Origin: Bacteroidota bacterium
Lineage (GTDB): Bacteria; Bacteroidota; Bacteroidia; AKYH767-A; OLB10
Length of the DNA stretch: 64,000 nucleotides
Assembly: GCA_031418215.1 (NCBI GenBank)
Contig: JANOXC010000103.1
Location: forward strand, 47,323 to 111,322
Direction: 5' to 3'
How positions within the stretch are numbered: position 1 is the stretch's first letter; every line of letters begins with the position of its first letter. This document shows, in pieces, positions 5,723-56,723 of the stretch. A program made the translations under genes and the position numbers. A model generated the notes under the pieces. It saw nothing but the letters and a program-made list of their open reading frames with translations, did no database searches and was not told the origin of the DNA.

Positions 5723-7246
5723 TCAGGCAATAAGATTTTTCCCTGTCATCTCTGCAGGAACAGGAATATCCATTAACGATAAAATTGTTGGTGCAATGTC
5801 TGCGAGCCGCCCATTATTGAAATGTGTAACCTTTGCATCCTCTATCAAAATACAAGGAACAGGGTTGGTAGTATGTGCAGTATTGGGTGAGCCATCGGGA
5901 TTAATCATCATATCAGCATTCCCGTGATCAGCGATGATGATAAAGGAATAACCATTGGCACTTCCTGCTTCAACTACTTCCTTTAAACAGCGGTCTACGG
6001 TTTCAACTGCTTTAACTGCAGCAGCAAAAACGCCGGTATGTCCAACCATATCAGCATTGGCAAAATTAAGGCAAACAAAATCCGCTTCTCCTTTTTTCAA
6101 TTCTGCAACAATAGCATCTTTAACGGCAATGGCACTCATCTCGGGTTGCAAGTCATAGGTGGCAACCTTCGGAGAAGGAATCATGATACGTTGCTCACCA
6201 TTAAAAGGCAACTCTCTTCCACCTGAAAAGAAAAAGGTAACGTGCGGATATTTTTCTGTTTCTGCAATACGAATCTGTTTTTTACCAGCTTTCTCCAACA
6301 CTTCTCCTATTGTCATGCTGAGATTTTGCTTTTCATAAATTGTTTCTACGTTTTTATACGACTCCTCATAACGTGTCATAGTAACATAATGCAAATCCAA
6401 TTTCTTCATTCCCTGTTCCGGCATATCATTTTGGGTAAGCACTTGTGTTAGTTCACGCAAACGATCTGTACGAAAATTAAAACAAATGACAGTATCACCA
6501 TCTTTAATTTTCGCAAGCGGGTGACCGTGACTATCTGTTACAATTATTGGTTTAATAAATTCATCCGTCACATTGTTTGCATACGATTCCTCCACCCCAT
6601 TTCGCCAGTCTTCCAACTTCTCTCCAACTCCATTTACCATTGCATCATAAGCAATCTTCACCCGTTCCCAACGTTTGTCTCTATCCATTCCAAAATATCT
6701 TCCAGTTACTGTTGCAATTTTTCCAGTTGTTTTGTGAAGATGTAATTCCAAATCATGTAAAAAACCTAGTCCACTTTTAGGATCAGTATCCCGTCCGTCA
6801 GTCAATGCATGGATATATATTTTCTTCAACCCATAATCATTAGCAATGGTACACAGATGTTCAAGATGTTTTATATGAGAATGAACACCACCATCAGACA
6901 CTAAACCAATAAAATGCATTGCCACATCATTCTTCATTGCATATTCCATGGCATTTATCAATACGGGCATCTTGTCCAAGGTTCGCTCTCGTACTGCTTT
7001 GTTAATGCTTGCCAACTCCTGGTATACCACTCGTCCTGCACCAATATTTAAATGGCCCACTTCTGAATTTCCCATCTGTCCTTCAGGTAATCCAACATCT
7101 TCTCCGCTTGTTACCAATGTTGAATGCGGACGGTCAGCCATCAGCTGATCCATGAATGGAGTTTTTGCTTTCGCAATGGCATTGGCCTTTGTATCAGGAG
7201 CAAGGCCCCAGCCGTCGAGGATGATTAGTGCTACTTTTTTTGACAT
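5723..7246 (-). CDS. gpmI: 2,3-bisphosphoglycerate-independent phosphoglycerate mutase
   Basis: 507 aa. The N-terminus ALIILDGWG, with the catalytic Ser in the NSEVGH motif, is typical of iPGM. Confidence 0.95.
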   Translation of the reverse strand: MSKKVALIILDGWGLAPDTKANAIAKAKTPFMDQLMADRPHSTLVTSGEDVGLPEGQMGNSEVGHLNIGAGRVVYQELASINKAVRERTLDKMPVLINAMEYAMKNDVAMHFIGLVSDGGVHSHIKHLEHLCTIANDYGLKKIYIHALTDGRDTDPKSGLGFLHDLELHLHKTTGKIATVTGRYFGMDRDKRWERVKIAYDAMVNGVGEKLEDWRNGVEESYANNVTDEFIKPIIVTDSHGHPLAKIKDGDTVICFNFRTDRLRELTQVLTQNDMPEQGMKKLDLHYVTMTRYEESYKNVETIYEKQNLSMTIGEVLEKAGKKQIRIAETEKYPHVTFFFSGGRELPFNGEQRIMIPSPKVATYDLQPEMSAIAVKDAIVAELKKGEADFVCLNFANADMVGHTGVFAAAVKAVETVDRCLKEVVEAGSANGYSFIIIADHGNADMMINPDGSPNTAHTTNPVPCILIEDAKVTHFNNGRLADIAPTILSLMDIPVPAEMTGKNLIA

Positions 7247-7459
7247 TGTTTAGGTGACTTGGTTAGGAGGCTTGGAGGCTAGGGGGCTAAGATGCTAGGA
7301 GGCGAGGAGGTTACGAGGCTAGGGGGCTAGGAAGTGTTTAGGTAAAAAAATAAATTGGAGATTGCTATAATCGTTAAATTTAACATTTAATTTCTTCGCC
7401 TCTTTGCTTCTTCGCCTTTTCGCTTTTCACCACTTAGCTTCTTCTCGTTTCGCTATCTT
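7247..7459. repeat. low-complexity intergenic region: degenerate GA/CT-rich short tandem repeats (GGAGGCT/AGGGGGCTA units at 7260-7335; CTTCGCC/TTTCGC units at 7395-7459) flanking an AT-rich core
   Basis: Repeats are seen directly in the sequence. The region lies between the tyrS stop and the gpmI start, on the coding (minus) strand. Confidence 0.6.
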
Positions 7460-8737
7460 CTATTCCACTTTTAGTAAATAATAATTCTTCTTCCCTTTCT
7501 GCACCAATATATATTTTCCTTTTAATAATTGTTCTGAATTAATTTGTTGCTGGGGATCATCAATTTTTGACTTGTTGATGCTTACGCCGCCACCCTGTAT
7601 CATTTTTCTTGCTTCGCCCTTGGAGGGAAATACCTGTGTGTTTACAGATAATAAATCTACCAATGAAATTCCATTGCTGAGTTCTATTTTTGACAATGAC
7701 ATTTGAGGAACTCCTTCCATCACATTCAGCAATAGTTTTTCATCCAAGTTCAACAATGCTTCTGCAGTATCGTTGCCAAATAAAATCCCTGATGCTTCTA
7801 CTGCTGTATGATAATCATCTGCAGAATGAACACGCATCGATATATCTTTTGCCAATGCCTTTTGCAATATGCGTTTCTCAGGAGCAGCGAAATGTTGTAC
7901 TTCCAATTCTGCAATTTCCTCTTTGGTTAACAAAGTAAAAATCCTGATGTACTTTTTTACGTCTTCATCACTTGCATTCAACCAAAACTGGTAGAAATGA
8001 TATGGAGAAGTTTTAGCCGGATCGAGCCATACATTGCCTGCTTCCGTTTTACCAAACTTGCTTCCATCAGCCTTAGTAATCAACGGCGTAGTTAATGCAA
8101 ATGCTTCACCATTGTCTTTACGACGAATCAATTCTGTCCCCGTTACAATATTTCCCCACTGATCGCTGCCTCCCATCTGCAGCTTCACACCCTGGTGTTT
8201 CCATAAGTAATAGAAATCGTATCCTTGCACCAGCTGGTATGCAAATTCAGTGAAGGATAATCCAGACTCTAATCTTTTCTGAACAGAATCCTTAGAGAGC
8301 ATGTAGCTGATGGTAATATGTTTCCCTACATCACGGATAAAATCAAGAAATGAAAAATCTTTGAACCAATCATAGTTATTTACTATTTCAGCAGATTGTT
8401 CGCCTTTATCGAAATCCAAAAATTTCTCCAGCTGTTTACGTTGACATTGCAAATTATGTTGAAGTATGTCATCATTCAATAAATTTCGTTCCTGGCTCTT
8501 CCCGGATGGGTCGCCCACCATTCCTGTAGCTCCGCCAATCAAAGCAATGGGTGTATGCCCGGCGCGCTGAAAATGCAAGAGGATCATTATTTGTACAAGG
8601 TTCCCAACGCCTAATGAATCAGCAGTAGGATCAAATCCAATGTATCCTTTTACCCTTTCCTTTTTAAGGAGTTCTTCGGTGCCGGGCATCACATCATTTA
8701 ACATTCCACGCCACCGAAGTTCTTCAACAAAACTCAT
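7460..8737 (-). CDS. tyrS: tyrosine--tRNA ligase
   Basis: 425 aa. It has a class I aaRS fold with a KFGKT (KMSKS-like) motif and a C-terminal S4-like domain. Confidence 0.9.
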
Positions 8738-11387: not shown

Positions 11388-11545
11388 TTATCCTCTCCTT
11401 CTGAGAGGAGGATTTACTTCTCTGATGAGTAGAATTTGCTTCTCTGTGGAGAAGACGCAACTTCTCTAATGAGTAGATTTTGGTTCTCTGGTTAGAAGAC
11501 TTTACTTCTCTGATAATAAAAGTTTACTTCTACGGCGAGGATGAT
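11388..11545. repeat. array of about six degenerate 22-25-bp tandem repeats (approximate consensus TTACTTCTCTGRTGAGWAGA). Several are internally palindromic, e.g. CTTCTC-TGTG-GAGAAG.
   Basis: Repeats are seen directly in the sequence. The array is intergenic, between the DUF420 gene and the small membrane-protein gene within the cox maturation operon. Confidence 0.6.
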
Positions 11546-11580: not shown

Positions 11581-12120
11581 TTAAAATCGGTAATAAGGGG
11601 AAATCATCAGGTAAACCACCACCCCTGTAACAGTAACGTATAACCAAAAAGGGAAGGTCCACCGTGCCAGCTTGCGATGCCTTGCAACCTGCATACCCAA
11701 TCCCAGATAAAAAGTGAACAATACAAACGGAAGGATCGTTGCTGCCAGGATTATATGTGTTATTAAAATAAAAAGATAAACAGGGCGAAGCGGATTGTCC
11801 AATGGGTACTTCGTTTCAATACCAAGAGAATGAAACCAGACGTAGGAAACGAGAAATAATGCAGAAAGGACAAAGGCTGTAATATTAAGCCGCTTATGCA
11901 GTTTGATTTTCTTTAACCTGATGGAGATATATGAAATCATCAATAAAATTGATGCCGTTCCATTCAACAATGCATTAACACGTGGAAGCCAGGGGGTATA
12001 AGACGGTATATCGGTAGCACGTGGAAGAAAAGAAAGTCCGGCAACTACTAAAAATATAACAATGGAAAAAAGGAGGATAATCCTGAAAACACCTTTCTCT
12101 GAAGCTTGCGTTAATTCCAT
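11581..12120 (-). CDS. DUF420 family membrane protein (associated with cytochrome oxidase loci)
   Basis: It has four TM helices and the motif HRKLARWTFPFWLYVTVTGVVVY. It occupies the typical position after SCO1 in Bacteroidota cox clusters. Confidence 0.75.
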   Translation of the reverse strand: MELTQASEKGVFRIILLFSIVIFLVVAGLSFLPRATDIPSYTPWLPRVNALLNGTASILLMISYISIRLKKIKLHKRLNITAFVLSALFLVSYVWFHSLGIETKYPLDNPLRPVYLFILITHIILAATILPFVLFTFYLGLGMQVARHRKLARWTFPFWLYVTVTGVVVYLMISPYYRF

Positions 12121-45063: not shown

Positions 45064-48000
45064 TCAGGCTTCTTTTTTCTCTGATACTTTATTACGAACC
45101 TTGGTGTGATAATAAACTGATGGCTGTGTATCCAGCTCTTCCAATAAACTGTAAGAACGAGGATCGGCATTTGCTTTCACTATCTCACTTTCTTTATCCA
45201 AAGAATCACCAAAGATGATTGCATTGGTAGGGCATGATTGTGCACATGCTGTTTTTATCTCTCCGTCAATTGGTCGACGTCCTGCTTTCTTGGCATCAAG
45301 CTTACCATATTGAATACGTTGAATACACATCGTGCATTTTTCCATTACACCACGTGAGCGAACAACGACATCTGGATTCAACACCATCTTGCCTAAGTTG
45401 TCATACTGGTTATAAGGGAACTGCTCATTCTCGTTGTAGCGGAACCAATTAAATCTTCTTACTTTATATGGACAGTTATTCGCACAATATCTGGTACCTA
45501 CACAACGGTTGTAAGCCATCATGTTTAATCCTTCCATACTATGTGTTGTTGCTACAACTGGACAAACCGTTTCACAAGGTGCATGATTACAATGTTGACA
45601 CATAACCGGCTGAAACACCACCTCCGGGTTATCGGCTGCCGGCTTCTCCATCTCGGCATACATACTTAATTTGCCTAATTTTTTTGCTTCAGCATTCTCT
45701 TTAGTCGTATCGCTGCTGTAATAACGATCGATACGGATCCAATGCATCTCGCGGCTGCGGCCAATTTCATCTTTACCAACAACAGGAACATTATTTTCCG
45801 CAGTACAAGCAACCACACAAGCGCCACATCCAATACATGCATTCAAATCAATGGACATGTTCCAGAAGTGATTTGTTTTGGGGTGACCGGGATTTTTTTC
45901 CGTAGCCCACAAGTCCAACTCACCAGGTTTCTTCTTACCATAAGGAGAAGCTATTGTTAATTGGGCATTACCTGAATTTGGTTTTACTAACCACTCAGCT
46001 AATGTTGTCTCCTTTACAATTTCGCGACCCATCATGGTATGGTGCGTCTGCGTTGTTGCAAGTTCATATAAATCATCCGGAGTCTTTGTTACACTTACAC
46101 CGGTTGCATAATATTTCATCGCTCCATTCTCAACGCTAACGAATGGATAAACGTTAACTCCAACATTGTTGCCAGCTTTACCAACCTTTGTTCTTCCATA
46201 TCCTAAGGCTATGGCTAAAGTTTCATCCGTCATTCCGGGTTGCAGCAATACAGGGCCTTTTATTTTAAAGTCTCCTGCCTTCACTTCAATTACTGTTCCC
46301 TGAACGTAACCCATCTTCTTTGCATATGCAGGTAATACAGCAAAGTAATTATCCCAACACACTTTTGAAACCGGATCCGGTAATTCCTGCAACCATGGAT
46401 TATTAGCCTGGTTACCATCACCCAATCCTGTTTTTGTATACAATACTAATTCAACACCAGGTTTTGGTTGTTGTGTTTTTGCAGCAGCATCTTGAATATT
46501 GCCTGTGAATGCCACAACAGCACCGGCATTAACATTTATTTCAAATATTCCGTCCTGTAAAGATTTATTCCAAAAAGCTTCAAATGAACTCATACCAGAC
46601 TGCTGAGAAAACATATTTGCTTTCCAATACTCTTCTATATATGTATGGAAATCCGTATTTGCAGCTTCAGCCCAAGTTAATAGACTTGATTGTGCTTGTC
46701 TTGTATCAAACAAATTCTCAATAGTTGGTTGGCCGAGGCTAAAAACACCTTTTATGGGTTCAGCATCACTCCATGACTCCAGATAATGAGAATCAGGACA
46801 GATATAATCACAAACGGCGGAAGTTTCGTCCTCGCGATCAGCAAAAGAAATTTTTACGCCTGCTTTATTAATTGCTGCTTGCAATGCAGGCATGCTATAT
46901 CCGGGGTTTGCATTATATATAATCACAGCTCCCACTTCACCGTTGTTTAGTTCAGTGATAAGTGAAGCAACTGCTTCATCGTTACTTGCACGTATTAAAT
47001 AGGGCTGATCAGCATTGATGGTGTTACCATAGCTTCCCAACATACTGTTAATAGCATTCACAAGCACTTGCTCATTGGGATCATTAGATCCGGAAACAAC
47101 AAGAGCCTTTCCTTTTGCATTCCATAATTCCTGTGCTACGGAGTCAATTGTTTTATCGGCTGGAATGGATGGTGCATTTACTGCTACTCCTCCTGACAAT
47201 GATGCAATCTTATTATATAAGGCAGCCACTGCAGCACTCTGTTCACTTGCACGAATCTTGTAGCGGTTGTCGGCATTTGATCCGGTTAAAGAAAGCATGG
47301 TTTCAAACTGAATATGTCTTGACATATTTTTCTTGCCCCCACGCAGTTTCCTTGTAGCTGCATACTGACGTGAAATTTCAATTGGCGACAACCAATTCAC
47401 GAGGAAGTCAGCACCGAAGCTTACAATTACATCTGCCTTATCAAAGCGGTATCCCGGAATTGAAAACTTTCCAAATGACAATTCATTTCCTTTTAATAAG
47501 CCGTAACTTGAAACAGCATCATACACCACTTGTTTGGTAGTAGGGTATTTAGCAGTAAAATCAGTCATCACCTTTTTAGTAGAAGGACTGCTAACAGAAG
47601 AAGAGAGAATAACAATCTTTTTTCCCGATGCACTTACTTCAGCTAATTTCTTTTTTATTTCACCATCGACAGAAGCCCATGTTGATACTTTTTTATTGGC
47701 TAACGGACCTTTTAAACGTGCACTGTCATATAATCCCAAAACAGAAGCCTGCACCCGTGCACTCGTTCCACCTTTTGAAAATGAAGATAATTCATTGCCT
47801 TCGATTTTAATTGGGCGACCTTCACGTGTCTTTACAAGCACACTGCAATAATCACTGCCGTCAAAATAGGTAGAAGCATAATAATTAGGAACCCCTAATG
47901 TTAACTCCTCAGGCTTTATTACATAAGGAATTGCCTTTTTAACAGGGGCCTGACAAGCTGCTAAGGAAGCGGCTGCTACACTGAATCCCATGAATTTCAA

Positions 48001-48153
48001 AAAGTCTCTTCTTGAGGTGTTATCTGTTGAAGATGCTTTATTACTCATCACTTCATCAACAGGAAGGTGCTCAAAAAATTCATTGTTCTTCAAACGAACG
48101 AATTCCGCATCGTTTTGCAGTTCTTCAACACCTTTCCAATATTGTTTTTCCAT
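45064..48153 (-). CDS. actB: ACIII subunit ActB (fused molybdopterin-oxidoreductase-like B1 plus 4Fe-4S ferredoxin B2; Tat signal)
   Basis: The Tat motif is RRDFLKFMGFSVAAASLAAC. It has a large MopB-like domain. The C-terminal region has several CxxCxxCxxxCP iron-sulfur clusters. Confidence 0.9.
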   Translation of the reverse strand: MEKQYWKGVEELQNDAEFVRLKNNEFFEHLPVDEVMSNKASSTDNTSRRDFLKFMGFSVAAASLAACQAPVKKAIPYVIKPEELTLGVPNYYASTYFDGSDYCSVLVKTREGRPIKIEGNELSSFSKGGTSARVQASVLGLYDSARLKGPLANKKVSTWASVDGEIKKKLAEVSASGKKIVILSSSVSSPSTKKVMTDFTAKYPTTKQVVYDAVSSYGLLKGNELSFGKFSIPGYRFDKADVIVSFGADFLVNWLSPIEISRQYAATRKLRGGKKNMSRHIQFETMLSLTGSNADNRYKIRASEQSAAVAALYNKIASLSGGVAVNAPSIPADKTIDSVAQELWNAKGKALVVSGSNDPNEQVLVNAINSMLGSYGNTINADQPYLIRASNDEAVASLITELNNGEVGAVIIYNANPGYSMPALQAAINKAGVKISFADREDETSAVCDYICPDSHYLESWSDAEPIKGVFSLGQPTIENLFDTRQAQSSLLTWAEAANTDFHTYIEEYWKANMFSQQSGMSSFEAFWNKSLQDGIFEINVNAGAVVAFTGNIQDAAAKTQQPKPGVELVLYTKTGLGDGNQANNPWLQELPDPVSKVCWDNYFAVLPAYAKKMGYVQGTVIEVKAGDFKIKGPVLLQPGMTDETLAIALGYGRTKVGKAGNNVGVNVYPFVSVENGAMKYYATGVSVTKTPDDLYELATTQTHHTMMGREIVKETTLAEWLVKPNSGNAQLTIASPYGKKKPGELDLWATEKNPGHPKTNHFWNMSIDLNACIGCGACVVACTAENNVPVVGKDEIGRSREMHWIRIDRYYSSDTTKENAEAKKLGKLSMYAEMEKPAADNPEVVFQPVMCQHCNHAPCETVCPVVATTHSMEGLNMMAYNRCVGTRYCANNCPYKVRRFNWFRYNENEQFPYNQYDNLGKMVLNPDVVVRSRGVMEKCTMCIQRIQYGKLDAKKAGRRPIDGEIKTACAQSCPTNAIIFGDSLDKESEIVKANADPRSYSLLEELDTQPSVYYHTKVRNKVSEKKEA

Positions 48154-48260: not shown

Positions 48261-49496
48261 TTAATAATGGCAACGCGCACATTCTAACCCACCAATTTTA
48301 TCGACGGTTATTTTTGCATCCTTACCATATTGCTTTTTCATATCCTCATGAAGCGCTGTGTAATATCCATTGCCTTCCATTTTTACTTCTGTATCACGGT
48401 GACACTGGATGCACCATCCCATATTTAAAGGAGAGAACTGCTTAACTACCTCCATTTCCTGAACAGGGCCATGACAGGTTTGGCATTCAATCTTGCCTAC
48501 TACTACATGCTGAGAGTGGTTGAAGTATGCCAAATCTGGCAGATTATGAATACGTACCCACTGAATAGCTTTTCCGGGACCGGTATATTGTGCCTTTGAC
48601 GCATCCCATCCAACTGCATCATATATTTTTTGAATTTCTTCTTTCCCATATTGCGCCCCGGTCTGAACATATTTATGACAATTCATGCAGACATTTGGAG
48701 AAGGTATTCCGGCGTTTTTACTTTTCTCTGCTCCTGAGTGGCAGTATTTGCAATTGATGCCATTGGTCCCGGCATGCATAGCATGTGAAAATTTAATAGG
48801 CTGATCAGGTTGATAATTTAGTTCCTGACCTATTCCGGCCAAAGCATACCATCCCTTGTAACTGCTTACTACAGCACCCACAATTAAAAATACAGCTATT
48901 AATTTTTTGTGTTCGCGAATCCAGTGCTTGGTTCCCGCTTTGCCTTTCAAAACAACCGGTTCTGGCGTCCCTTCATTCTGACGAACTACTCTTTCAAGGC
49001 TTTTCTTTACCCTATTTAATATAGCGTAAATTCCAATCAACGCAATTACAACGATAACCAGCATCCAAGGAAAGCCTTCATCTTCCCCGGAAGCAGCTCC
49101 GGCAACTGGTGCGGCAGTTGTTGCTACTGCAGGCGCCTTATCATTTTCTGCTTTAACATAGGCCAAAACGGCTTTGATTTCCTCATCATTTAATGCCTGA
49201 GATGGCATCACCACTTTGTTGTTTTCCTCAAAAAGTTTCACAGCAGTGGCTTCGCCGCTTTTAATTACAGCCTGCGAATTCTTTATCCAAGGAAGAAGCC
49301 ATGCGAGGGTGCGTCTTTTCTCAACATCCTTTAACCCGGGGCCAATTACTTTACTGTCGCTTGTTGCATGACAGGAAGCACAATTGTTTTGGAACAGGAC
49401 TTTACCATCAGGCTGTGCTGATATGGGTTGGGAAGAAAACAAGAATAAAAACCCAATAAGGGCGATACAGCATTTACCGGTAATCTTGTGAATCAT
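48261..49496 (-). CDS. actA: ACIII multiheme cytochrome c subunit ActA with an additional N-terminal monoheme class-I cytochrome c domain (6 CXXCH in total)
   Basis: The CXXCH motifs are CASCH, CKYCH, CMNCH, CQTCH, CIQCH and CARCH. There are two internal TM helices. The start was trimmed to the Met that gives a signal peptide (MIHKITGKCCIALIGFLFLFSS). Confidence 0.85.
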   Translation of the reverse strand: MIHKITGKCCIALIGFLFLFSSQPISAQPDGKVLFQNNCASCHATSDSKVIGPGLKDVEKRRTLAWLLPWIKNSQAVIKSGEATAVKLFEENNKVVMPSQALNDEEIKAVLAYVKAENDKAPAVATTAAPVAGAASGEDEGFPWMLVIVVIALIGIYAILNRVKKSLERVVRQNEGTPEPVVLKGKAGTKHWIREHKKLIAVFLIVGAVVSSYKGWYALAGIGQELNYQPDQPIKFSHAMHAGTNGINCKYCHSGAEKSKNAGIPSPNVCMNCHKYVQTGAQYGKEEIQKIYDAVGWDASKAQYTGPGKAIQWVRIHNLPDLAYFNHSQHVVVGKIECQTCHGPVQEMEVVKQFSPLNMGWCIQCHRDTEVKMEGNGYYTALHEDMKKQYGKDAKITVDKIGGLECARCHY

Positions 49497-49829
49497 AGTT
49501 ACATGATTAATAGTTAAGCGTTTACGGAAGATTTTTACCAATTCCTGACAATTATCCCGCAAAAGTGTGGGCAAATTTAACAGAAACAACAGGAAAGCAA
49601 ATTTTTATGGGGGATATTTTTACACGTTTTTCCACTTATTTTTAGTTCAGGCTTAAGTTAATTGGAATCAACTACTAAAAAAATTAAAAATGAAGAATCA
49701 AAATTTTTTTAAAATGCCGAAGATCGATTTTGAAAGCAAATGAATAATAGAAGACGTTGAAGTATGCTTCCGTTTTATTTTCTACAACAAAATACATTTC
49801 TATTGTTTTACCAATACTTTTGCATTGAA

Positions 49830-50216
49830 ATGATGCTACGATTTTCAATTGTATTTATTTGCTTATTCAATTCTGCGATTTTATTTGGTCAGTCTTTTAA
49901 GTCACAAGACAGCTTGGTGAACCAATTGATAGAGCGCCAAAAAGCAATCAATGCACAAAAGATGACAATGTCGGGTTACCGTATTCAACTTTTTTTTGGT
50001 GGCGACCGGGCAAGGGCAAATAATATGCGTCTGGACTTTTTACAACAATATCCTGATTTGGGCGCCTATGTGATTTATCAACAGCCCAATTTCAAACTCC
50101 GCATTGGTGATTTTAAATCCAGAATGGAAGCTGCTACATTTTTGAAAGAAATGCAGCCTGGTTATTCAATGGCCTTTATTGTGCCTGATGAGGTGAAGTT
50201 GCCAGTTATCGAATAA
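49830..50216 (+). CDS. SPOR-like domain protein (small, secreted/anchored)
   Basis: The N-terminal hydrophobic segment is followed by a region resembling the C-terminal SPOR fold (GYRIQLFFGGDRARANNMRLDFLQQYPDLGAYV...FKLRIGDF). The start was trimmed to the internal Met. Confidence 0.5.
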   Translation: MMLRFSIVFICLFNSAILFGQSFKSQDSLVNQLIERQKAINAQKMTMSGYRIQLFFGGDRARANNMRLDFLQQYPDLGAYVIYQQPNFKLRIGDFKSRMEAATFLKEMQPGYSMAFIVPDEVKLPVIE

Positions 50217-50250
50217 CAGAAAAATCAGCGCTTTTGGTATAAACTTTATG

Positions 50251-50391
50251 TTTGAGTTGGTTTGAGTTGGTTTGAATTGGTTTGAATTAGTTTGAGTTGG
50301 TTTAGATAAGTTAATATCAAACCTTTTATTTTTAGCGAAACCAGAAACCAGAAACCAGAAACTAGAAACTAGAAACTAGAAACTAGAAACC
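50251..50391. repeat. two adjacent microsatellite arrays: (GTTTGAGTTG)x~5.5 at 50251-50305 and (GAAACCA)x3 plus (GAAACTA)x4 at 50337-50391, separated by 31 bp. They end 12 bp before the DUF1211 start codon.
   Basis: Seen directly in the sequence. The unit cores are partially reverse-complementary (GGTTTG vs CAAACC). Confidence 0.8.
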
Positions 50392-50402
50392 TTTTCCAAA
50401 CC

Positions 50403-51091
50403 ATGGAAGACGAAAAACCATATTTAATGGAAGAAATCCGTAAAGAATTCCAATTGGAACGCATGGTGCTTTTTAGTGATGCCGTTTCCGCCATTGTAAT
50501 CACTTTGATGGCCATAGAAATACACTTGCCTCAATTTTCTGAGAAAATGACTGAGGCTGTATTAGTTCATGAGCTGAAGCTTTTATTGCCTGTTTTTTTG
50601 CATACCTGGTAAGCTTCGTTTTCATCGGACAATCCTGGTATCGGCATTTGAAATTCTTCAGCCTATTAAAAGATTACGACAAAGGTTTGGTCGTCCGAAA
50701 CCTGGTGATGTTGTTTTTTATTGGATTATTCCCTTTCGGTGCATCACTGGTTTCCCAAAGCGGAGGGCTTACAACACCCATCTATATTTATTTTGGCATC
50801 ATATTCTGCTGCACAACAGCCCAGTATGTATTAAATTACTACATTGTTTATCAGCGTCCACATTTGTGCCGGATCACCAATACCAAAGAGGAAAAAGAAT
50901 CACTGAAAAAAAGCAGGGATTTCCTGATTGGATTAATGGCAATAATGTTGTTGATCTTTATTACTAATGAGGTTATTACAGACCCCGATCTCAAGCCACT
51001 TTCCGCAATTTGGGCATTGGTGTTTTTGGCGATAAGAAAGCTATCTTCAATGAAGAAAAGTGCCAGAAAAGCTACTCCTAAATCAAAATAA
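50403..51091 (+). pseudogene. DUF1211 (TMEM175-like) membrane protein gene interrupted by a +1 frameshift in a T7 homopolymer (50593-50599)
   Basis: ORF 50403-50612 ends 'LLPVFLHTW*'. Reading the +1 frame from the T-tract gives 'AYLVSFVFIGQSWYRHLKFFSLLKDYDKG', which continues into ORF 50648-51091. Together the two segments form one DUF1211-type protein of about 229 aa. Confidence 0.65.
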
Positions 51092-51472
51092 TGTAAAACT
51101 TAAGATGCTAACACCTTGGCATTCGGATATTTCACTGTCCACAATTTTAAGGCAGACATGTGAGGGATAGTAATAAAGGTGCGTTCATCTAATTGAACTT
51201 TAATTTTTGCTTTCGTAGGAGCCTGCGTCATGATGCGGTTCTTTACTCTACTGGGATATTTATTTTTCATAGTACGAAGATAACCTTATTTAGCCAAATA
51301 AATTGCATAAACACTAATAAATATTACACTTATCAACAACGTAACATTGAAAATCAATGGGTAAGCTTCATTTGTTAGCTAAACTTTAACTTTTAGCTCA
51401 ATTCCTTTACAGTTGAGGGTTTGAAGGGCATTGGTCATTATTAGCCAAAAAGACCTTCATTCTTGCTTGAAC

Positions 51473-51500: not shown

Positions 51501-52223
51501 ATGAAAAAAACAATACTCTTGGCCCTTTTGACAACTTTTACATGGAATGCCTTGTTTGCCCAACCAACCAATAGTTTACCCATTCCGGTTAAAAAAATTG
51601 AAGTTACCGGAATCGCTGAGATGGAAGTTGTGCCTGATGAAATATATATAGGTATAACACTTCAGGAATACTACAACAAACAAAAAGTAAAAATTGATAT
51701 TAATGAGATTTCGAAAAAGTTCCTGGCAACATGCGAGATGTCGGGTATCACTAAAGAAAGAATAGAAGTTCAAAATATGTCGGGATTTGATAATACGAAT
51801 TGGTGGAATAGCAGAAGAAAAAAGGAACAACCTGATTTATTGCAAGCTACAACTTATTTATTAAAATTCAACGCTCCCGGTGAAGTTGATAAGCTTGTAA
51901 ATATGTTGGATGATAACGCTACGCAGAATGTATTTGTTAGTAAAACATCAAGCTCAAAGGAAAAAGAATACCGTAAACAACTTAAAATTCAAGCTTTACA
52001 AAACGCAAAAGTAAAAGCAAACTATTTGTTGGAAGGTATTGGTGAAAAAGCAGGAAAGGTATTGTTTGTGAAAGAAGTTGACGCTGCACAACCAGAGTAT
52101 CCAATGTATCAAATGAAAATGGCAAATACAATGATGGCAGGTGATGCCGGCGCCAATGAAGGAATTAATTTCAAAAAAATAAAATACAGTTTTCAGGTGG
52201 AAGCACATTTTGCAATTGAATAG
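51501..52223 (+). CDS. SIMPL domain (DUF541) periplasmic protein
   Basis: It has a signal peptide and the SIMPL-like N-terminal core KIEVTGIAEMEVVPDEIYIGITLQ. The protein is 240 aa. Confidence 0.7.
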   Translation: MKKTILLALLTTFTWNALFAQPTNSLPIPVKKIEVTGIAEMEVVPDEIYIGITLQEYYNKQKVKIDINEISKKFLATCEMSGITKERIEVQNMSGFDNTNWWNSRRKKEQPDLLQATTYLLKFNAPGEVDKLVNMLDDNATQNVFVSKTSSSKEKEYRKQLKIQALQNAKVKANYLLEGIGEKAGKVLFVKEVDAAQPEYPMYQMKMANTMMAGDAGANEGINFKKIKYSFQVEAHFAIE

Positions 52224-52232
52224 AAAAAAAAC

Positions 52233-52436
52233 AATTTGAAAATTCGAAAATTCGACAATTTGAAAATGAAGCCATAATTAATCCTTATCTGTATAAGAGG
52301 CAAGGATGAGTCTGAATTTTTAAACTGAAAATTGAATTATTCTCCTCAATAATTTATTGATAAAATGAAAGGAATATATATTCCATTTAAATAAACAGAC
52401 AATTATCTAATTTTCAAATTGTCGAATTTTCAAATT
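52233..52436. repeat. inverted repeat pair: 27-bp perfect IR (AATTTGAAAATTCGACAATTTGAAAAT / reverse complement; the left copy has an 8-bp internal duplication) bracketing a 142-bp AT-rich segment
   Basis: Seen directly in the sequence. IR-L is at 52233-52267 and IR-R at 52410-52436. It is intergenic, between the SIMPL gene and the cytochrome c gene. Confidence 0.8.
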
Positions 52437-52473
52437 AAAAACATCTATTTTCACCAACCAAACCCAACACACT

Positions 52474-53088
52474 ATGTTCACAGGAATGTTACACACCCAT
52501 AAATTAGTAGTTACCCTTTTTCTGCTGATTTACCTCATCAAAACTATTTTACTGCTGCTGAATAAAAATGAAACACTGCAAAGTTTTATCAAAAAAACAC
52601 GCATCGCTGAAATGATCATTAGTGTTGCTTTTCTGGCAACAGGAATATATCTGGCTAATAACAGTGGCAACATCGGACAATTATTTTGGATCAAAATTAT
52701 ATGCGTTGCTGCTTCCATCCCAATTGCTGTAGTTGCCTTTAAAAAATCAAAAAAAGCACTTGCGGTATTGGCTCTTTTATTAATAATAGCTTCCTACGGT
52801 TTAGGTGAAATGGGAAAGAAAGGTAAGAAAACCAATCCTCAGGAATTTGCAAATGTTGAAGCAGCACAATTGGGCCAATCGATTTATGAAAAGAAATGCA
52901 TGAATTGTCATGGCGCAGATGGAAAACTGGGACTCAGCGGTTCAAAAGATCTGACGGTTTCCGTATTGACACGGGAAGAAAAAATAATTGCAATCAAAGA
53001 AGGCAAGAATGCCATGATGAGCTTTAAGGATCAACTGGACGATGAGCAGATAAACGCTGTCGTTGACTATGTTTCTCAATTCAAATAG
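52474..53088 (+). CDS. membrane-anchored class I c-type cytochrome (4 TM N-domain plus monoheme CMNCHG domain)
   Basis: Four hydrophobic helices are followed by a single CXXCH motif and a Met-containing distal region (NAMMSF). Confidence 0.75.
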   Translation: MFTGMLHTHKLVVTLFLLIYLIKTILLLLNKNETLQSFIKKTRIAEMIISVAFLATGIYLANNSGNIGQLFWIKIICVAASIPIAVVAFKKSKKALAVLALLLIIASYGLGEMGKKGKKTNPQEFANVEAAQLGQSIYEKKCMNCHGADGKLGLSGSKDLTVSVLTREEKIIAIKEGKNAMMSFKDQLDDEQINAVVDYVSQFK

Positions 53089-56255: not shown

Positions 56256-56723
56256 TTCACGCAGAGAACGCTGAGGAGCGGAGAACGCAGCTATGAAAAT
56301 AAATGAAATTACTTCGGTTGTAATTGAAGAAAGTATATATATACACCGATCACTTGGGCCGGGTTTATTTGAATCGGTTTATGAAGAAGTGCTTGCTTAT
56401 CGTTTAACAAAACGTGGCTTGATGGTCAAATGCCAAAAAGGAATTCCCGTTTTGTTTGAAGATGTTAAAATGAATGTTGGTTTCCGCGCTGATTTAATAG
56501 TGAATGATAAAGTCCTGTTAGAAATTAAATCCCTGGAAGTAGTTCCCAAAGTTGCAGAAAAGCAGGTTATGACTTATTTACGTTTAAGCGGAATACAAAT
56601 TGGATTGTTAATCAATTTTAATGTGGAAAGATTAGTGGATGGAGTTAAGCGTATTGCAAATCACTATAAAGAAGATTAACATTCCTCTGCGCCCTCCGCC
56701 TCTCTGCTTCCTCTGCGTGAAAT
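56256..56723. other. GC-rich cassette: GxxExxY gene flanked by approximately 38-bp imperfect terminal inverted repeats (12-bp perfect core TTTCACGCAGAG / CTCTGCGTGAAA)
   Basis: Left IR is at 56256-56292 and right IR at 56684-56723. The arms are about 70% complementary overall. Their GC-rich composition contrasts with the AT-rich surroundings. Confidence 0.55.
56293..56679 (+). CDS. GxxExxY protein (PD-(D/E)XK nuclease superfamily)
   Basis: 128 aa with the 'GPGLFESVYEEVL' motif (GxxExxY). It has a D...E.K-like core (ADLIVNDKVLLEIKS). Confidence 0.8.
   Translation: MKINEITSVVIEESIYIHRSLGPGLFESVYEEVLAYRLTKRGLMVKCQKGIPVLFEDVKMNVGFRADLIVNDKVLLEIKSLEVVPKVAEKQVMTYLRLSGIQIGLLINFNVERLVDGVKRIANHYKED

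What the first reader, a model, noticed from the sequence alone, without database searches (positions are those of the whole stretch)
50251..50391. Two different microsatellite arrays, partly complementary, immediately upstream of the DUF1211 start
The arrays are (GTTTGAGTTG)x~5.5 and (GAAACCA)x3/(GAAACTA)x4, separated by 31 bp, and end 12 nt before the ATG. Together they fill the whole putative promoter/leader. The cores GGTTTG and CAAACC are reverse complements, so the arrays could pair imperfectly in the DNA or RNA. Copy-number variation in either array would change promoter spacing. Tandem repeat arrays of this kind are rare in compact Bacteroidota intergenic regions.
Basis: seen in the sequence. 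Interest (0 to 1): 0.5.

Follow-up and report, generated by a model that had tools for sequence, protein, structure and literature searches.

The report
Hypervariable heptamer repeat before TMEM175 gene
Two real short tandem-repeat arrays lie between a SPOR gene and a frameshifted TMEM175 channel gene of an uncultured Bacteroidota bacterium, and the 7-base array changes copy number between environmental samples, but it is one of many such intergenic microsatellites in this lineage, a known kind of bacterial repeat with no shown effect on expression.

Summary
A decamer array (GTTTGAGTTG, 5.4 copies, 50250-50303) and a heptamer array (GAAACCA/GAAACTA, 7.9 copies, 50337-50391) fill the SPOR-TMEM175 spacer and end 11 nt before the ATG. 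This is far beyond chance.

The main new result is that the heptamer array is hypervariable in nature. Metagenome contigs with otherwise identical flanks carry 6, 7, 9, 11, 11 and at least 11 units. The decamer array is nearly fixed.

The locus is not unique. The window and its three nearest MAG relatives carry 3-9 intergenic 7-8-nt arrays each, and 67 of 74 more distant Bacteroidota loci carry none. This matches the published class of intergenic heptamer-repeat assemblages.

The claimed complementarity is weak. The shared core is 6 nt, which 23% of unrelated array pairs reach, and the fold z-score is -2.05. True repeat-armed hairpins do occur nearby.

Promoter-spacing control is unlikely. The array is too long for a promoter spacer and too close to the ATG, so it most probably lies in the transcribed leader.

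The downstream gene carries a -1 frameshift in a T7 run in every sampled allele.

Verdict: a new member of a known kind, of moderate interest.

The parts
49764..50216 (+). Upstream gene encoding a SPOR-domain protein. The signal-peptide start is probably at 49830.
   Evidence: Pfam PF05036, E = 4.6e-08. The divergent ActA|SPOR gene order is conserved in many Bacteroidota loci.
50247..50254 (+). TATGTTTG, the only perfect Bacteroidota -7 promoter box (TAnnTTTG) within 200 nt of the TMEM175 ATG. It overlaps the first decamer unit and is the candidate promoter.
   Evidence: Motif scan. Other genes in the window have this box 10-115 nt from their start codon. Here it is 156 nt away, which would be 47 nt without the two arrays. 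Its function is inferred, not shown.
50250..50303 (+). Decamer array (GTTTGAGTTG/GTTTGAATTG), 5.4 copies. It is G/T-rich and contains no C.
   Evidence: TRF score 87. It is identical in the window and in every other contig that spans it whole (L010, L013-L015, L093, L095-L099). L094 has one unit fewer, and L100 has a longer variant. It occurs only once in the window.
50299..50333 (+). Spacer hairpin GGTTT-A-GATA / AGTTAA / TATC-AAACC (50299-50323), followed by TTTTATTTTT (50324-50333). It resembles a weak intrinsic terminator for the SPOR gene. TATTTTTA (50327-50334) matches the -7 box at 7 of 8 positions.
   Evidence: Fold dG -6.5 kcal/mol, z = -2.24. The stricter terminator scan did not report it. 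It is invariant in all alleles.
50337..50391 (+). Hypervariable heptamer array, (GAAACCA)3(GAAACTA)4 GAAACC in this window.
   Evidence: TRF score 82. Alleles found: 2+4, 3+4, 2CTA+2CCA+5CTA, 7+4 (twice), at least 8+3, and 1CTA+5CCA+5CTA. k=31 Logan contigs break inside the array. The CTAG in the CTA units puts a stop codon in all six frames, so the array is non-coding (read directly from the sequence).
50392..50410 (+). Small hairpin UUUUCCA-AACCA-UGGAAGA that includes the start codon.
   Evidence: dG -7.2 kcal/mol, z = -2.3. It is invariant among alleles.
50403..51091 (+). TMEM175/DUF1211 gene, split into 50403-50612 and 50648-51091 by a -1 frameshift in the T7 run at 50593-50599. A T8 run would restore a 229-aa protein.
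   Evidence: ORFs and Pfam. The repaired protein aligns over 91-99% of its length with 220-235-aa homologues at 50-57% identity, and no intact near-identical allele was found in a search of about 5.8 billion non-redundant proteins. The 69-aa product is called in 10 contigs.

Best explanation
These are two slippage-prone simple-sequence-repeat arrays. They belong to a class of intergenic 7-10-nt repeat assemblages that has proliferated in this uncultured Bacteroidota clade.

The heptamer array is long and pure enough (95% matches) to gain and lose 7-bp units on a population timescale. The decamer array and the spacer are nearly fixed.

I infer that the arrays lie inside the transcribed leader of the TMEM175 gene. 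That leader would start either at the -7 box at 50247-50254 or further upstream, by read-through from the SPOR gene. Copy-number change would then alter 5'-UTR length by 7n nt, not promoter geometry.

The likely consequence is neutral or a mild tuning of mRNA or translation, not an on/off switch. The downstream gene is in any case interrupted by a frameshift in all sampled alleles.

The arrays probably grew out of the local sequence around a weak terminator-like hairpin whose arms (GGTTT.../...AAACC) resemble the repeat units.

Shown: the arrays, the polymorphism, the clade-wide abundance, the non-coding nature and the frameshift. Inferred: the slippage mechanism, the position in the leader, the weak effect and the origin.
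For: - The arrays are real and beyond chance.
- There are four length classes among five complete alleles. L013 and L014 differ from the window by array indels only (0 mismatches), and every contig is 99.9-100% identical downstream of the array. Changes come in whole 7-bp units.
- In the same set of contigs, less pure or shorter arrays are stable. The 52233/52401 arrays are identical in 6 contigs. The 13175 array is identical in 10 contigs. L001 and L002 are 100% identical to the window over 7.8 kb.
- The array upstream of the iPGM (phosphoglycerate mutase) gene differs by +2 units in L111. This is what length- and purity-dependent slippage predicts.
- The trait is clade-wide. There are 20 intergenic arrays in 100 kb for the window plus L016-L018, all non-coding and mostly of period 7-8. 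The 74 more distant loci have 11 arrays between them, and 67 of these loci have none.
- Unit sequences differ between loci and between species, even at the same intergenic position: after the SPOR gene in L017 and between ActA (the cytochrome c gene at 48261-49589) and ActB (the gene at 45064-48153) in L016, L017 and L018.
- The array is too long and too close to the ATG to be a promoter spacer, and the only -7 box lies upstream of both arrays.
- Predicted start-codon accessibility stays at 0.42-0.47 for 0-14 units.
- No Rfam family matches.
- Published descriptions fit. Heptamers are over-represented among long bacterial SSRs and vary in length between close relatives (PMC4692102). Heptamer assemblages lie just upstream of start codons in several Bacteroidetes, and contigs end inside the repeats (PMC4679880).
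Against: - The transcription start site is unknown, so placing the arrays in the leader is an inference.
- Copy numbers come from short-read assemblies, not from reads, and four contigs are chimeric at the array (L008, L009, L093, L096).
- Arrays next to start codons in the clade are mostly G-poor on the coding strand (8 of 10). Arrays also recur at the same intergenic positions in relatives. Both hint at selection rather than pure neutrality.
- The fold pairing three decamer units with the three CCA units is marginally better than shuffled controls (z = -2.05).
- A proven precedent exists for a heptamer repeat in a 5'-UTR that acts through such a hairpin (hmw1A, PMC12721329).
Confidence: 0.55

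Rival explanations
1. An hmw1A-like rheostat. The G/U-rich decamer units (UUGGUUU) pair with the AAACCAG parts of the heptamer array in the 5'-UTR and form a long bulged hairpin around the central stem-loop. The number of CCA units sets the stem length. Processing (for example by RNase III) or stability of this hairpin then grades TMEM175 expression.
For: - The predicted minimum-free-energy structure pairs 3 decamer units with the 3 CCA units (z = -2.05, 9 of 200 shuffles as good).
- Natural alleles are predicted to form 14-38 inter-array pairs, increasing with the number of CCA units.
- CCA units vary more (2-8) than CTA units (3-5).
- The precedent is the (ATCTTTC)n repeat of H. influenzae hmw1A, which sits in the 5'-UTR and pairs with a G-rich arm. 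There RNase III cleaves the hairpin and expression is inversely proportional to n (PMC12721329).
- True hairpins with repeat arms exist at 52224-52473 (z = -6.0), in L018 (z = -4.6) and in unrelated bacteria carrying the same heptamer (z = -10.3 and -8.7).
Against: - The exact complementary core is only 6 nt, which 23% of non-partner array pairs reach.
- 12% of heptamer arrays built from permuted units fold as well.
- The whole leader has z = -1.15.
- A 3-nt bulge every 7 bp makes a poor RNase III substrate (inference).
- Accessibility of the start codon is insensitive to copy number.
- The gene is frameshifted in every sampled allele.
Confidence: 0.15
2. A translational leader element. In Bacteroidota, whose ribosomes do not use Shine-Dalgarno pairing, the A/C-rich, G-poor, unstructured array just before the ATG would serve as a loading platform for the ribosome or as a binding site for an RNA-binding protein (S1, a Csp-like protein). 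Copy number would then tune translation.
For: - Arrays within about 80 nt of a start codon in this clade are G-poor on the coding strand in 8 of 10 cases, and arrays next to stop codons tend to be G-rich.
- Arrays abut the start codons of essential genes: iPGM at 17 nt, COX4 at 3 nt, and ActB in L016 and L018 at 10-13 nt.
- MacGregor proposed this role for TAACTGA repeats (PMC4679880).
- Translation in Bacteroidetes depends on low structure and on specific A residues upstream of the start codon (PMC6847099).
Against: - The sample is only 10 arrays.
- In 80 metagenome loci from diverse organisms, (GAAACYA)n arrays near a start codon show no orientation bias (16 versus 10, p = 0.33).
- G-poor composition could simply be inherited from the local sequence that was amplified.
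- No binding protein has been identified.
Confidence: 0.12
3. Promoter-spacing phase variation. Gain or loss of units would change the distance between promoter elements, or between an activator site and the core promoter, and so switch transcription on and off.
For: Copy number does vary. The decamer units carry TTTG motifs like the Bacteroidota -33 element, and TATTTTTA at 50327-50334 is a near-match to the -7 box (read directly from the sequence).
Against: - The array lies downstream of both candidate -7 boxes.
- At 42-84 bp it cannot be a -33/-7 spacer.
- Only 11 nt lie between the array and the ATG, with no TAnnTTTG there.
- The sigma-70-type scan finds nothing in the spacer.
- The decamer array, the only array that could sit in a promoter, is almost invariant.
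Confidence: 0.04
4. The copy-number differences are assembly artefacts of short-read metagenome assemblers at a low-complexity repeat.
For: Logan k=31 contigs break in the array. Four contigs (L008, L009, L093, L096) join the array to foreign DNA of 46-70% GC.
Against: - Complete alleles come from MEGAHIT (k141) or scaffold assemblies, and the arrays (42-84 bp) are shorter than a read.
- Each pure block (at most 49 bp) is anchored by CCA/CTA transitions and by unique flanks.
- The 7+4 allele was recovered independently in two samples (L010, L015).
- All differences are whole units.
Confidence: 0.05

Closest known systems
Intergenic heptamer direct-repeat assemblages (TAACTGA repeats of Beggiatoaceae, Cyanobacteria and five Bacteroidetes; MacGregor 2015, PMC4679880)
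   Same: - The repeats are 7-nt units in tandem, strictly intergenic, and in forward orientation within a few nucleotides of a start codon.
- Other heptamer arrays lie in the same spacer.
- Close relatives with the same gene order lack the arrays.
- The arrays sit at breaks in gene order.
- Contigs end inside the repeats.
- They occur in organisms that do not rely on Shine-Dalgarno sites.
   Different: - The unit is GAAACYA, not TAACTGA, and the window has no TAACTGA repeat.
- Here many different units coexist rather than one dominant heptamer.
- Population-level length polymorphism is documented here.
hmw1A/hmw2A (ATCTTTC)n 5'-UTR repeat of Haemophilus influenzae (PMC12721329, PMC8262952)
   Same: - A heptamer repeat lies directly upstream of a gene.
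- Its copy number is variable in nature.
- It is transcribed in the leader (inferred here).
- It may pair with a G-rich partner region on the other side of a hairpin.
   Different: - In hmw the hairpin, the RNase III cleavage and the inverse relation between expression and n are proven. Here the pairing is statistically marginal.
- The partner here is itself a repeat array of another period.
- The organism is an environmental Bacteroidota bacterium.
- The gene is a frameshifted channel homologue, not a surface adhesin.
Cyanobacterial STRR heptamers and the GGGAATC / GGGGA(C/T)T repeats of Xanthomonas and Nostoc (PMC4692102 and references cited there)
   Same: - Heptameric intergenic repeats are over-represented genome-wide in particular lineages.
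- Some occur as inverted pairs able to form stem-loops.
- Length varies widely between close relatives.
- Polymerase slippage is the proposed cause.
   Different: Those repeats are G-rich and can form G-quadruplexes. The arrays here are A/C-rich or G/T-rich with no G-runs. Units here are diverse, with periods of 7, 8 and 10.

Membership tests
Hypermutable simple sequence repeat (contingency-type SSR tract) | Head-to-tail copies of a short unit with high purity | tested here: met
   TRF: period 7, 7.9 copies, 95% matches; period 10, 5.4 copies, 90% matches.
Hypermutable simple sequence repeat (contingency-type SSR tract) | Copy number differs among closely related strains or populations, in whole units, while the flanks are conserved | tested here: met
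   Alleles of 6, 7, 9, 11, 11 and at least 11 units. L013 and L014 differ from the window by gaps only, and identity downstream of the array is 99.9-100% in all contigs. This is assembly-level evidence only.
Hypermutable simple sequence repeat (contingency-type SSR tract) | Expression of the linked gene switches or grades with copy number | not testable with these tools
   No expression data exist. Modelling shows no change in start-codon accessibility. The gene is frameshifted.
hmw-type 5'-UTR repeat hairpin | The repeat is transcribed as part of the 5'-UTR | tested here: inconclusive
   The only perfect -7 box lies upstream of both arrays, and only 11 nt separate the array from the ATG. The transcription start site is not mapped.
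hmw-type 5'-UTR repeat hairpin | A stable long hairpin between the repeat units and a partner region | tested here: inconclusive
   z = -2.05, and z = -1.15 for the whole leader. Twelve per cent of permuted-unit arrays fold as well. The 6-nt core is reached by 23% of unrelated array pairs.
Intergenic heptamer-repeat assemblages (STRR / TAACTGA type) | 7-nt units in tandem, confined to intergenic DNA, many loci per genome | tested here: met
   The window has 9 intergenic arrays and none in coding sequence. L016-L018 have 3-5 each, mostly of period 7-8.
Intergenic heptamer-repeat assemblages (STRR / TAACTGA type) | Several different arrays in one spacer, close to a start codon | tested here: met
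   A decamer plus a heptamer array lie here, 11 nt from the ATG. The same arrangement is seen at 7247-7462, 52224-52473 and in L017.
Intergenic heptamer-repeat assemblages (STRR / TAACTGA type) | The specific unit TAACTGA (for the MacGregor family in the strict sense) | tested here: not met
   No TAACTGA dimer in the window, even allowing 1 mismatch.
Dispersed mobile repeat (MITE / REP / BOX-like element) | Multiple similar copies dispersed in the genome | tested here: not met
   Both units occur only at this locus in the 64-kb window and in none of the 77 loci from relatives. Only 64 kb of this genome could be searched. L017 does have two copies of one composite block.
Intrinsic (Rho-independent) terminator, for the spacer hairpin | A G+C-rich stem followed by a U-run | tested here: inconclusive
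   A 9-bp stem with one bulge, dG -6.5 kcal/mol, then U4AU5. The consensus scan did not report it.
Any curated RNA family (riboswitch, leader, sRNA) | A match to an Rfam covariance model | tested here: not met
   No hit at gathering score in the window and none at E <= 1 in 50100-50700.

The most novel reading that the evidence does not exclude
The arrays are not junk. In this Bacteroidota clade, whose ribosomes ignore Shine-Dalgarno sites, orientation-specific G-poor repeat arrays placed just before start codons would act as copy-number-tunable leader elements. They would work either as ribosome or protein landing pads or, paired with a G-rich upstream array, as hmw-like hairpins. That would give the lineage a genome-wide set of mutable translational rheostats. 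At this locus the heptamer array, together with the T7 tract in the coding sequence, would make the TMEM175 channel gene a two-switch contingency locus in a free-living environmental bacterium.
Probability: 0.1. Interest if true: 0.65.

Novelty: new member of a known kind. Interest (0 to 1): 0.35.

Why it matters
Repeat-driven variation in gene expression has been worked out almost only in host-adapted pathogens such as Haemophilus, Neisseria and Campylobacter. In Bacteroidota, the phase variation I know of works through DNA inversion (my own knowledge, not checked here).

This locus shows a heptamer array that really does change length between natural samples of an uncultured, free-living Bacteroidota bacterium. 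It is embedded in a lineage where such arrays occupy 4-28% of non-coding DNA.

If the arrays affect translation or mRNA processing, this clade would be a natural system for studying tunable leaders in organisms that do not use Shine-Dalgarno sites. If they do not, the clade is still a clear case for asking why 7-8-nt repeats proliferate in some lineages.

There is also a practical consequence. These arrays break assemblies and create chimeric contigs in metagenomes.

Tried and rejected
- Known RNA families: Rfam gave nothing at gathering score or at E <= 1.
- Sigma-70 promoter and terminator scan of 49600-51200: nothing in the spacer.
- A JGI metagenome scan with the unique flank CCTTTTCCAAACCATGGAAGACG gave 0 hits, so no extra alleles came from there.
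- Association with small selfish genes (23S rRNA IVS protein, PDDEXK_3). I suspected that (GAAACYA)n arrays mark such elements, because one L128 site precedes an ORF that looked like one to me. The 139 ORFs flanking 80 metagenome arrays fall into 199 Pfam families, with none in more than 3 ORFs. Rejected.
- A specially conserved, cross-phylum GAAACYA motif. More than 120 metagenome contigs of 21-68% GC carry it. However, permuted control heptamers are equally frequent in viral contigs (8 versus 9 and 13), and the same spacers hold many other heptamers. Not supported. The control could only be run on viral contigs.
- Orientation constraint of GAAACYA arrays relative to the downstream start codon in the metagenome set: 16 versus 10, p = 0.33.
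- An intact (T8) allele of the TMEM175 gene: none in the protein database.
- A stimulatory structure for -1 frameshifting after the T-run: none (z = 0.21).
- TMEM175 downstream of SPOR in relatives: absent in all 77 loci, so no orthologous spacer could be aligned.

Full report
**1. The observation**

The sequence and Tandem Repeats Finder confirm two arrays in the 186-bp spacer between a SPOR-domain gene (49764-50216) and the ATG at 50403 of a TMEM175/DUF1211 gene (Pfam).

- The first array is (GTTTGAGTTG/GTTTGAATTG), 5.4 copies, at 50250-50303, TRF score 87.
- The second is (GAAACCA)3(GAAACTA)4 GAAACC, at 50337-50391, TRF score 82.
- The gap between them is 33 bp, and 11 nt separate the second array from the ATG.
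- None of 30 Markov-simulated windows produced an array scoring above 61. The real window has five TRF rows with score 80 or more.
- The heptamer array cannot be coding, because the CTAG in the CTA units puts a stop in every frame on both strands.
- No Rfam family matches.

**2. Copy number in nature**

I looked up the exact 69-aa N-terminal product of the TMEM175 gene, the SPOR protein and the SIMPL (DUF541) protein encoded at 51501-52223 in public assemblies. This returned about 25 metagenome contigs from the same species.

| Contig | Heptamer array | Units |
|---|---|---|
| L014 | 2 CCA + 4 CTA | 6 |
| window | 3 CCA + 4 CTA | 7 |
| L013 | 2 CTA + 2 CCA + 5 CTA | 9 |
| L010 and L015 (independent samples) | 7 CCA + 4 CTA | 11 |
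| L011 (contig starts inside the array) | at least 8 CCA + 3 CTA | at least 11 |
| L009 (left flank foreign) | 1 CTA + 5 CCA + 5 CTA | 11, after a degenerate CAAACCA unit |

These alleles are read.

- L013 and L014 differ from the window by gaps only, with no mismatch, and identity downstream of the array is 99.9-100% in every contig.
- The decamer array and the spacer are identical in the window and in every other contig that spans them whole. L094 has one unit fewer and L100 has a longer variant.
- Logan k=31 contigs stop inside the array.
- Four contigs (L008, L009, L093, L096) are joined at the array to DNA of 46-70% GC from other organisms. These are assembly chimeras.

The heptamer array is a genuine hypervariable site, with the caveat that the evidence is at assembly level.

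Other arrays in the same contig set behave as length and purity would predict.
- The impure heptamer array 3 nt upstream of the COX4 (cytochrome oxidase subunit IV) gene is identical in 10 contigs.
- The inverted arrays at 52233 and 52401 are identical in 6 contigs.
- The octamer array upstream of the iPGM (phosphoglycerate mutase) gene has two extra units in L111.

**3. Context: a trait of the clade**

A scan of species-representative genomes with ActA, the cytochrome c encoded next to SPOR at 48261-49589, shows that the nearest genomes are uncultured Bacteroidota MAGs at about 70% amino-acid identity (L016-L018).

- Running TRF over all loci shows 9 intergenic arrays in the window and 3-5 in each of L016-L018. 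That is 20 arrays in 100 kb, covering 4-28% of non-coding bases. None is in coding sequence, and periods are mostly 7 or 8.
- Of 74 more distant Bacteroidota loci, 67 have none.
- Units differ from locus to locus and from species to species, even at the same intergenic position.
- In L017 the roughly 250 bp after the SPOR gene is filled with five or more different arrays.
- The junction between ActA and ActB (the gene at 45064-48153) carries different arrays in the window, L016, L017 and L018.
- TMEM175 follows SPOR in none of the relatives. The arrays therefore sit at a break in gene order.
- In L017 the same composite block of arrays flanks a gene on both sides.

The statement that such arrays are rare in Bacteroidota holds for the phylum but not for this lineage.

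**4. Are the two arrays complementary?**

- The exact shared inverted core is TGGTTT/AAACCA, 6 nt.
- Among 300 pairs of arrays from the clade, 23% share an inverted substring of 6 nt or more.
- The RNA fold of 50250-50391 pairs three UUGGUUU segments (each followed by a 3-nt bulge) with the three AAACCAG segments, around the spacer hairpin. Its z-score is -2.05, and 9 of 200 shuffles fold as well.
- With the flanks included, z is -1.15.
- When the heptamer unit is permuted, 12% of the resulting arrays fold as well.

At this locus, then, pairing is physically possible but not distinguishable from chance.

The architecture does recur in clearer form elsewhere. It consists of a G-rich array, a small hairpin, a complementary C/A-rich array and then the start codon.
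- 52224-52473 is a 22-bp perfect inverted repeat of octamer arrays, with fold z = -6.0.
- The ActA-ActB spacer of L018 has (GGTTTAC)n and (GTAAACG)n arms around a GC palindrome, z = -4.6.
- 7247-7462 shows the same compositional pattern but no significant fold (z = -0.2).

I infer that the finding may be a degenerate member of this repeat-armed hairpin type. Its arms would have grown from the weak terminator-like hairpin GGTTTAGATA...TATCAAACC plus U4AU5 (dG -6.5 kcal/mol, z = -2.2). That hairpin's arm sequences resemble the two repeat units.

**5. Promoter or leader?**

- The Bacteroidota -7 box TAnnTTTG is found 10-115 nt upstream of many start codons in the window.
- For TMEM175 the only perfect box within 200 nt is TATGTTTG at 50247-50254, which overlaps the first decamer unit. 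It is 156 nt from the ATG, or 47 nt if the arrays are subtracted.
- A 7-of-8 match, TATTTTTA, lies at 50327-50334, just before the heptamer array.
- Nothing promoter-like fits in the 11 nt after the array, and a tract of 42-84 bp cannot be a -33/-7 spacer.

By inference the heptamer array is transcribed, and its variation changes leader length, not promoter geometry.

- Predicted mean unpaired probability of positions -15 to +12 stays at 0.42-0.47 for 0-14 units.
- A small invariant hairpin includes the AUG (dG -7.2 kcal/mol).

**6. The downstream gene**

- The TMEM175 reading frame breaks in a T7 run at 50593-50599.
- Adding one T gives a 229-aa protein that aligns over 91-99% of its length with 220-235-aa homologues at 50-57% identity.
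- No intact near-identical allele turned up in a search of about 5.8 billion non-redundant proteins.
- All 10 contigs found carry the truncated 69-aa call.
- U_UUU_UUG is a formal -1 slippery site, but no downstream structure is predicted (z = 0.21).

Whatever the array does, it is currently attached to a gene that is either inactive or needs recoding.

**7. The same heptamer elsewhere**

- (GAAACYA) arrays of 4 or more units occur in more than 120 JGI metagenome contigs of 21-68% GC.
- Of 86 arrays examined, 42 mix CCA and CTA units, 20 have an inverted (TRGTTTC)n partner within 300 bp, and 52 have another array, mostly a heptamer array, nearby.
- Examples with inverted partners fold with z = -10.3 and -8.7.
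- Flanking genes are unrelated housekeeping genes: 199 Pfam families, none enriched.
- Orientation relative to the downstream start is unbiased, 16 versus 10.
- Permuted control heptamers are equally frequent in viral contigs, 8 versus 9 and 13.

I read this as a general propensity of some bacteria to grow heptamer assemblages, not as a conserved GAAACYA element.

**8. Comparison with what is known**

- Heptamers are the over-represented class of long repeats in bacteria. They are intergenic, sometimes occur as inverted pairs, and vary in length between close relatives. Examples are Xanthomonas GGGAATC, Nostoc GGGGAYT and the Calothrix heptanucleotide repeats (PMC4692102).
- MacGregor (PMC4679880) described TAACTGA heptamers and larger assemblages of heptamer repeats just upstream of start codons in Beggiatoaceae, Cyanobacteria and five Bacteroidetes. 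Relatives lacked the repeats and contigs ended in them. That is the closest description of what is seen here, although TAACTGA itself is absent from the window.
- The best mechanistic analogue is the H. influenzae hmw1A (ATCTTTC)n repeat in the 5'-UTR. It pairs with a G-rich arm, is cleaved by RNase III, and grades expression (PMC12721329). Membership in that mechanism is untested here, and the structural criterion is inconclusive.
- Bacteroidetes translate without Shine-Dalgarno pairing and rely on an unstructured start region (PMC6847099). This makes a leader role conceivable. Eight of ten start-proximal arrays in the clade are G-poor on the coding strand, but the sample is small.

**9. Verdict**

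The arrays are real, and the heptamer array is a naturally hypervariable repeat. Both belong to a known kind of intergenic heptamer-type repeat assemblage that is unusually abundant in this uncultured Bacteroidota clade. The specific ideas of promoter spacing and inter-array pairing are not supported beyond chance at this locus. A regulatory role remains possible but unproven, and the linked gene is frameshifted. Novelty: a new member of a known kind. Interest: moderate (0.35).

Noticed in passing
window 50593-50599 (gene 50403-51091): The TMEM175 gene has a -1 frameshift in a T7 run, and T8 would restore a 229-aa protein. All 10 contigs found by the 69-aa lookup share the truncated product, and no intact near-identical allele exists in the protein database. 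U_UUU_UUG is a formal -1 slippery heptamer, but no downstream structure is predicted.
   Followed up: partly
window 52224-52473: A long hairpin lies between the SIMPL (DUF541) gene at 51501-52223 and the cytochrome c gene at 52474-53088. Inverted arrays of AATTTTC/GAAAATT-type octamers form a 22-bp perfect core (35-42-nt arms, 81-86% complementary) enclosing about 134 nt. RNA fold z = -6.0. The region is identical in six metagenome contigs.
   Followed up: partly
window 7247-7462 (minus strand): The spacer between the tyrosyl-tRNA synthetase gene (7460-8737) and the iPGM gene (5723-7246) has a purine-rich array right after the stop codon, a small AT palindrome plus T-run, and a C-rich octamer array (GCCTCCTA type) 17 nt before the ATG. 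The octamer array has two extra units in contig L111. The fold is not significant (z = -0.2).
   Followed up: partly
window 11400-11531: Six copies of a 22-nt unit (TCTGATGAGAAGAATTTACTTC), each with an internal CTTCTC...GAGAAG palindrome, lie 49 nt downstream of the DUF420 gene at 11581-12120. This is the highest-scoring tandem repeat in the window (TRF 103-135).
   Followed up: no
window (whole), L016, L017, L018: Intergenic 7-8-nt tandem arrays are a trait of the clade. There are 20 arrays in 100 kb, all non-coding, whereas 67 of 74 more distant Bacteroidota loci have none. Arrays next to start codons are mostly G-poor on the coding strand, and arrays next to stop codons are mostly G-rich.
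   Followed up: partly
L017 1-345 and 1625-1915: The same composite block of several different arrays (about 230-300 bp, with high identity in the alignable parts) occurs on both sides of a 428-aa gene. Copy numbers differ between the two copies. This looks like a dispersed or duplicated mosaic repeat.
   Followed up: partly
L018 7153-7251: Within the ACIII (alternative complex III respiratory) operon, the spacer between ActA and ActB of the close relative L018 is a hairpin. Its arms are the heptamer arrays (GGTTTAC)n and (GTAAACG)n around a GC palindrome (z = -4.6), and it ends 10 nt before the ActB start codon.
   Followed up: partly
L112-L191 (JGI metagenome contigs), e.g. L137 826-970, L143 118-262: The identical heptamer (GAAACCA/GAAACTA), often with mixed units, occurs in more than 120 contigs of 21-68% GC. 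Of 86 arrays examined, 23% have an inverted (TRGTTTC)n partner, forming very stable hairpins (z = -8.7 to -10.3), and 60% lie next to other heptamer arrays. No common flanking gene was found. Whether this heptamer is over-represented in bacteria could not be tested properly, because the control was run on viral contigs only.
   Followed up: partly
L008, L009, L093, L096: Four public metagenome contigs are chimeric at the heptamer array. They join this Bacteroidota locus to DNA of 46-70% GC, for example a gene I read as CheZ-like (my reading of the translation, not checked against a database) and a UPRTase (uracil phosphoribosyltransferase) gene. This is a warning for binning and annotation around such repeats.
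   Followed up: partly
window 56682-56716: A C-rich 9-mer array (TTCCTCTGC, 4 copies) starts 2 nt after the stop codon of a small PDDEXK_3 gene (56293-56679), between convergent genes. It is identical in L001 and L002.
   Followed up: no
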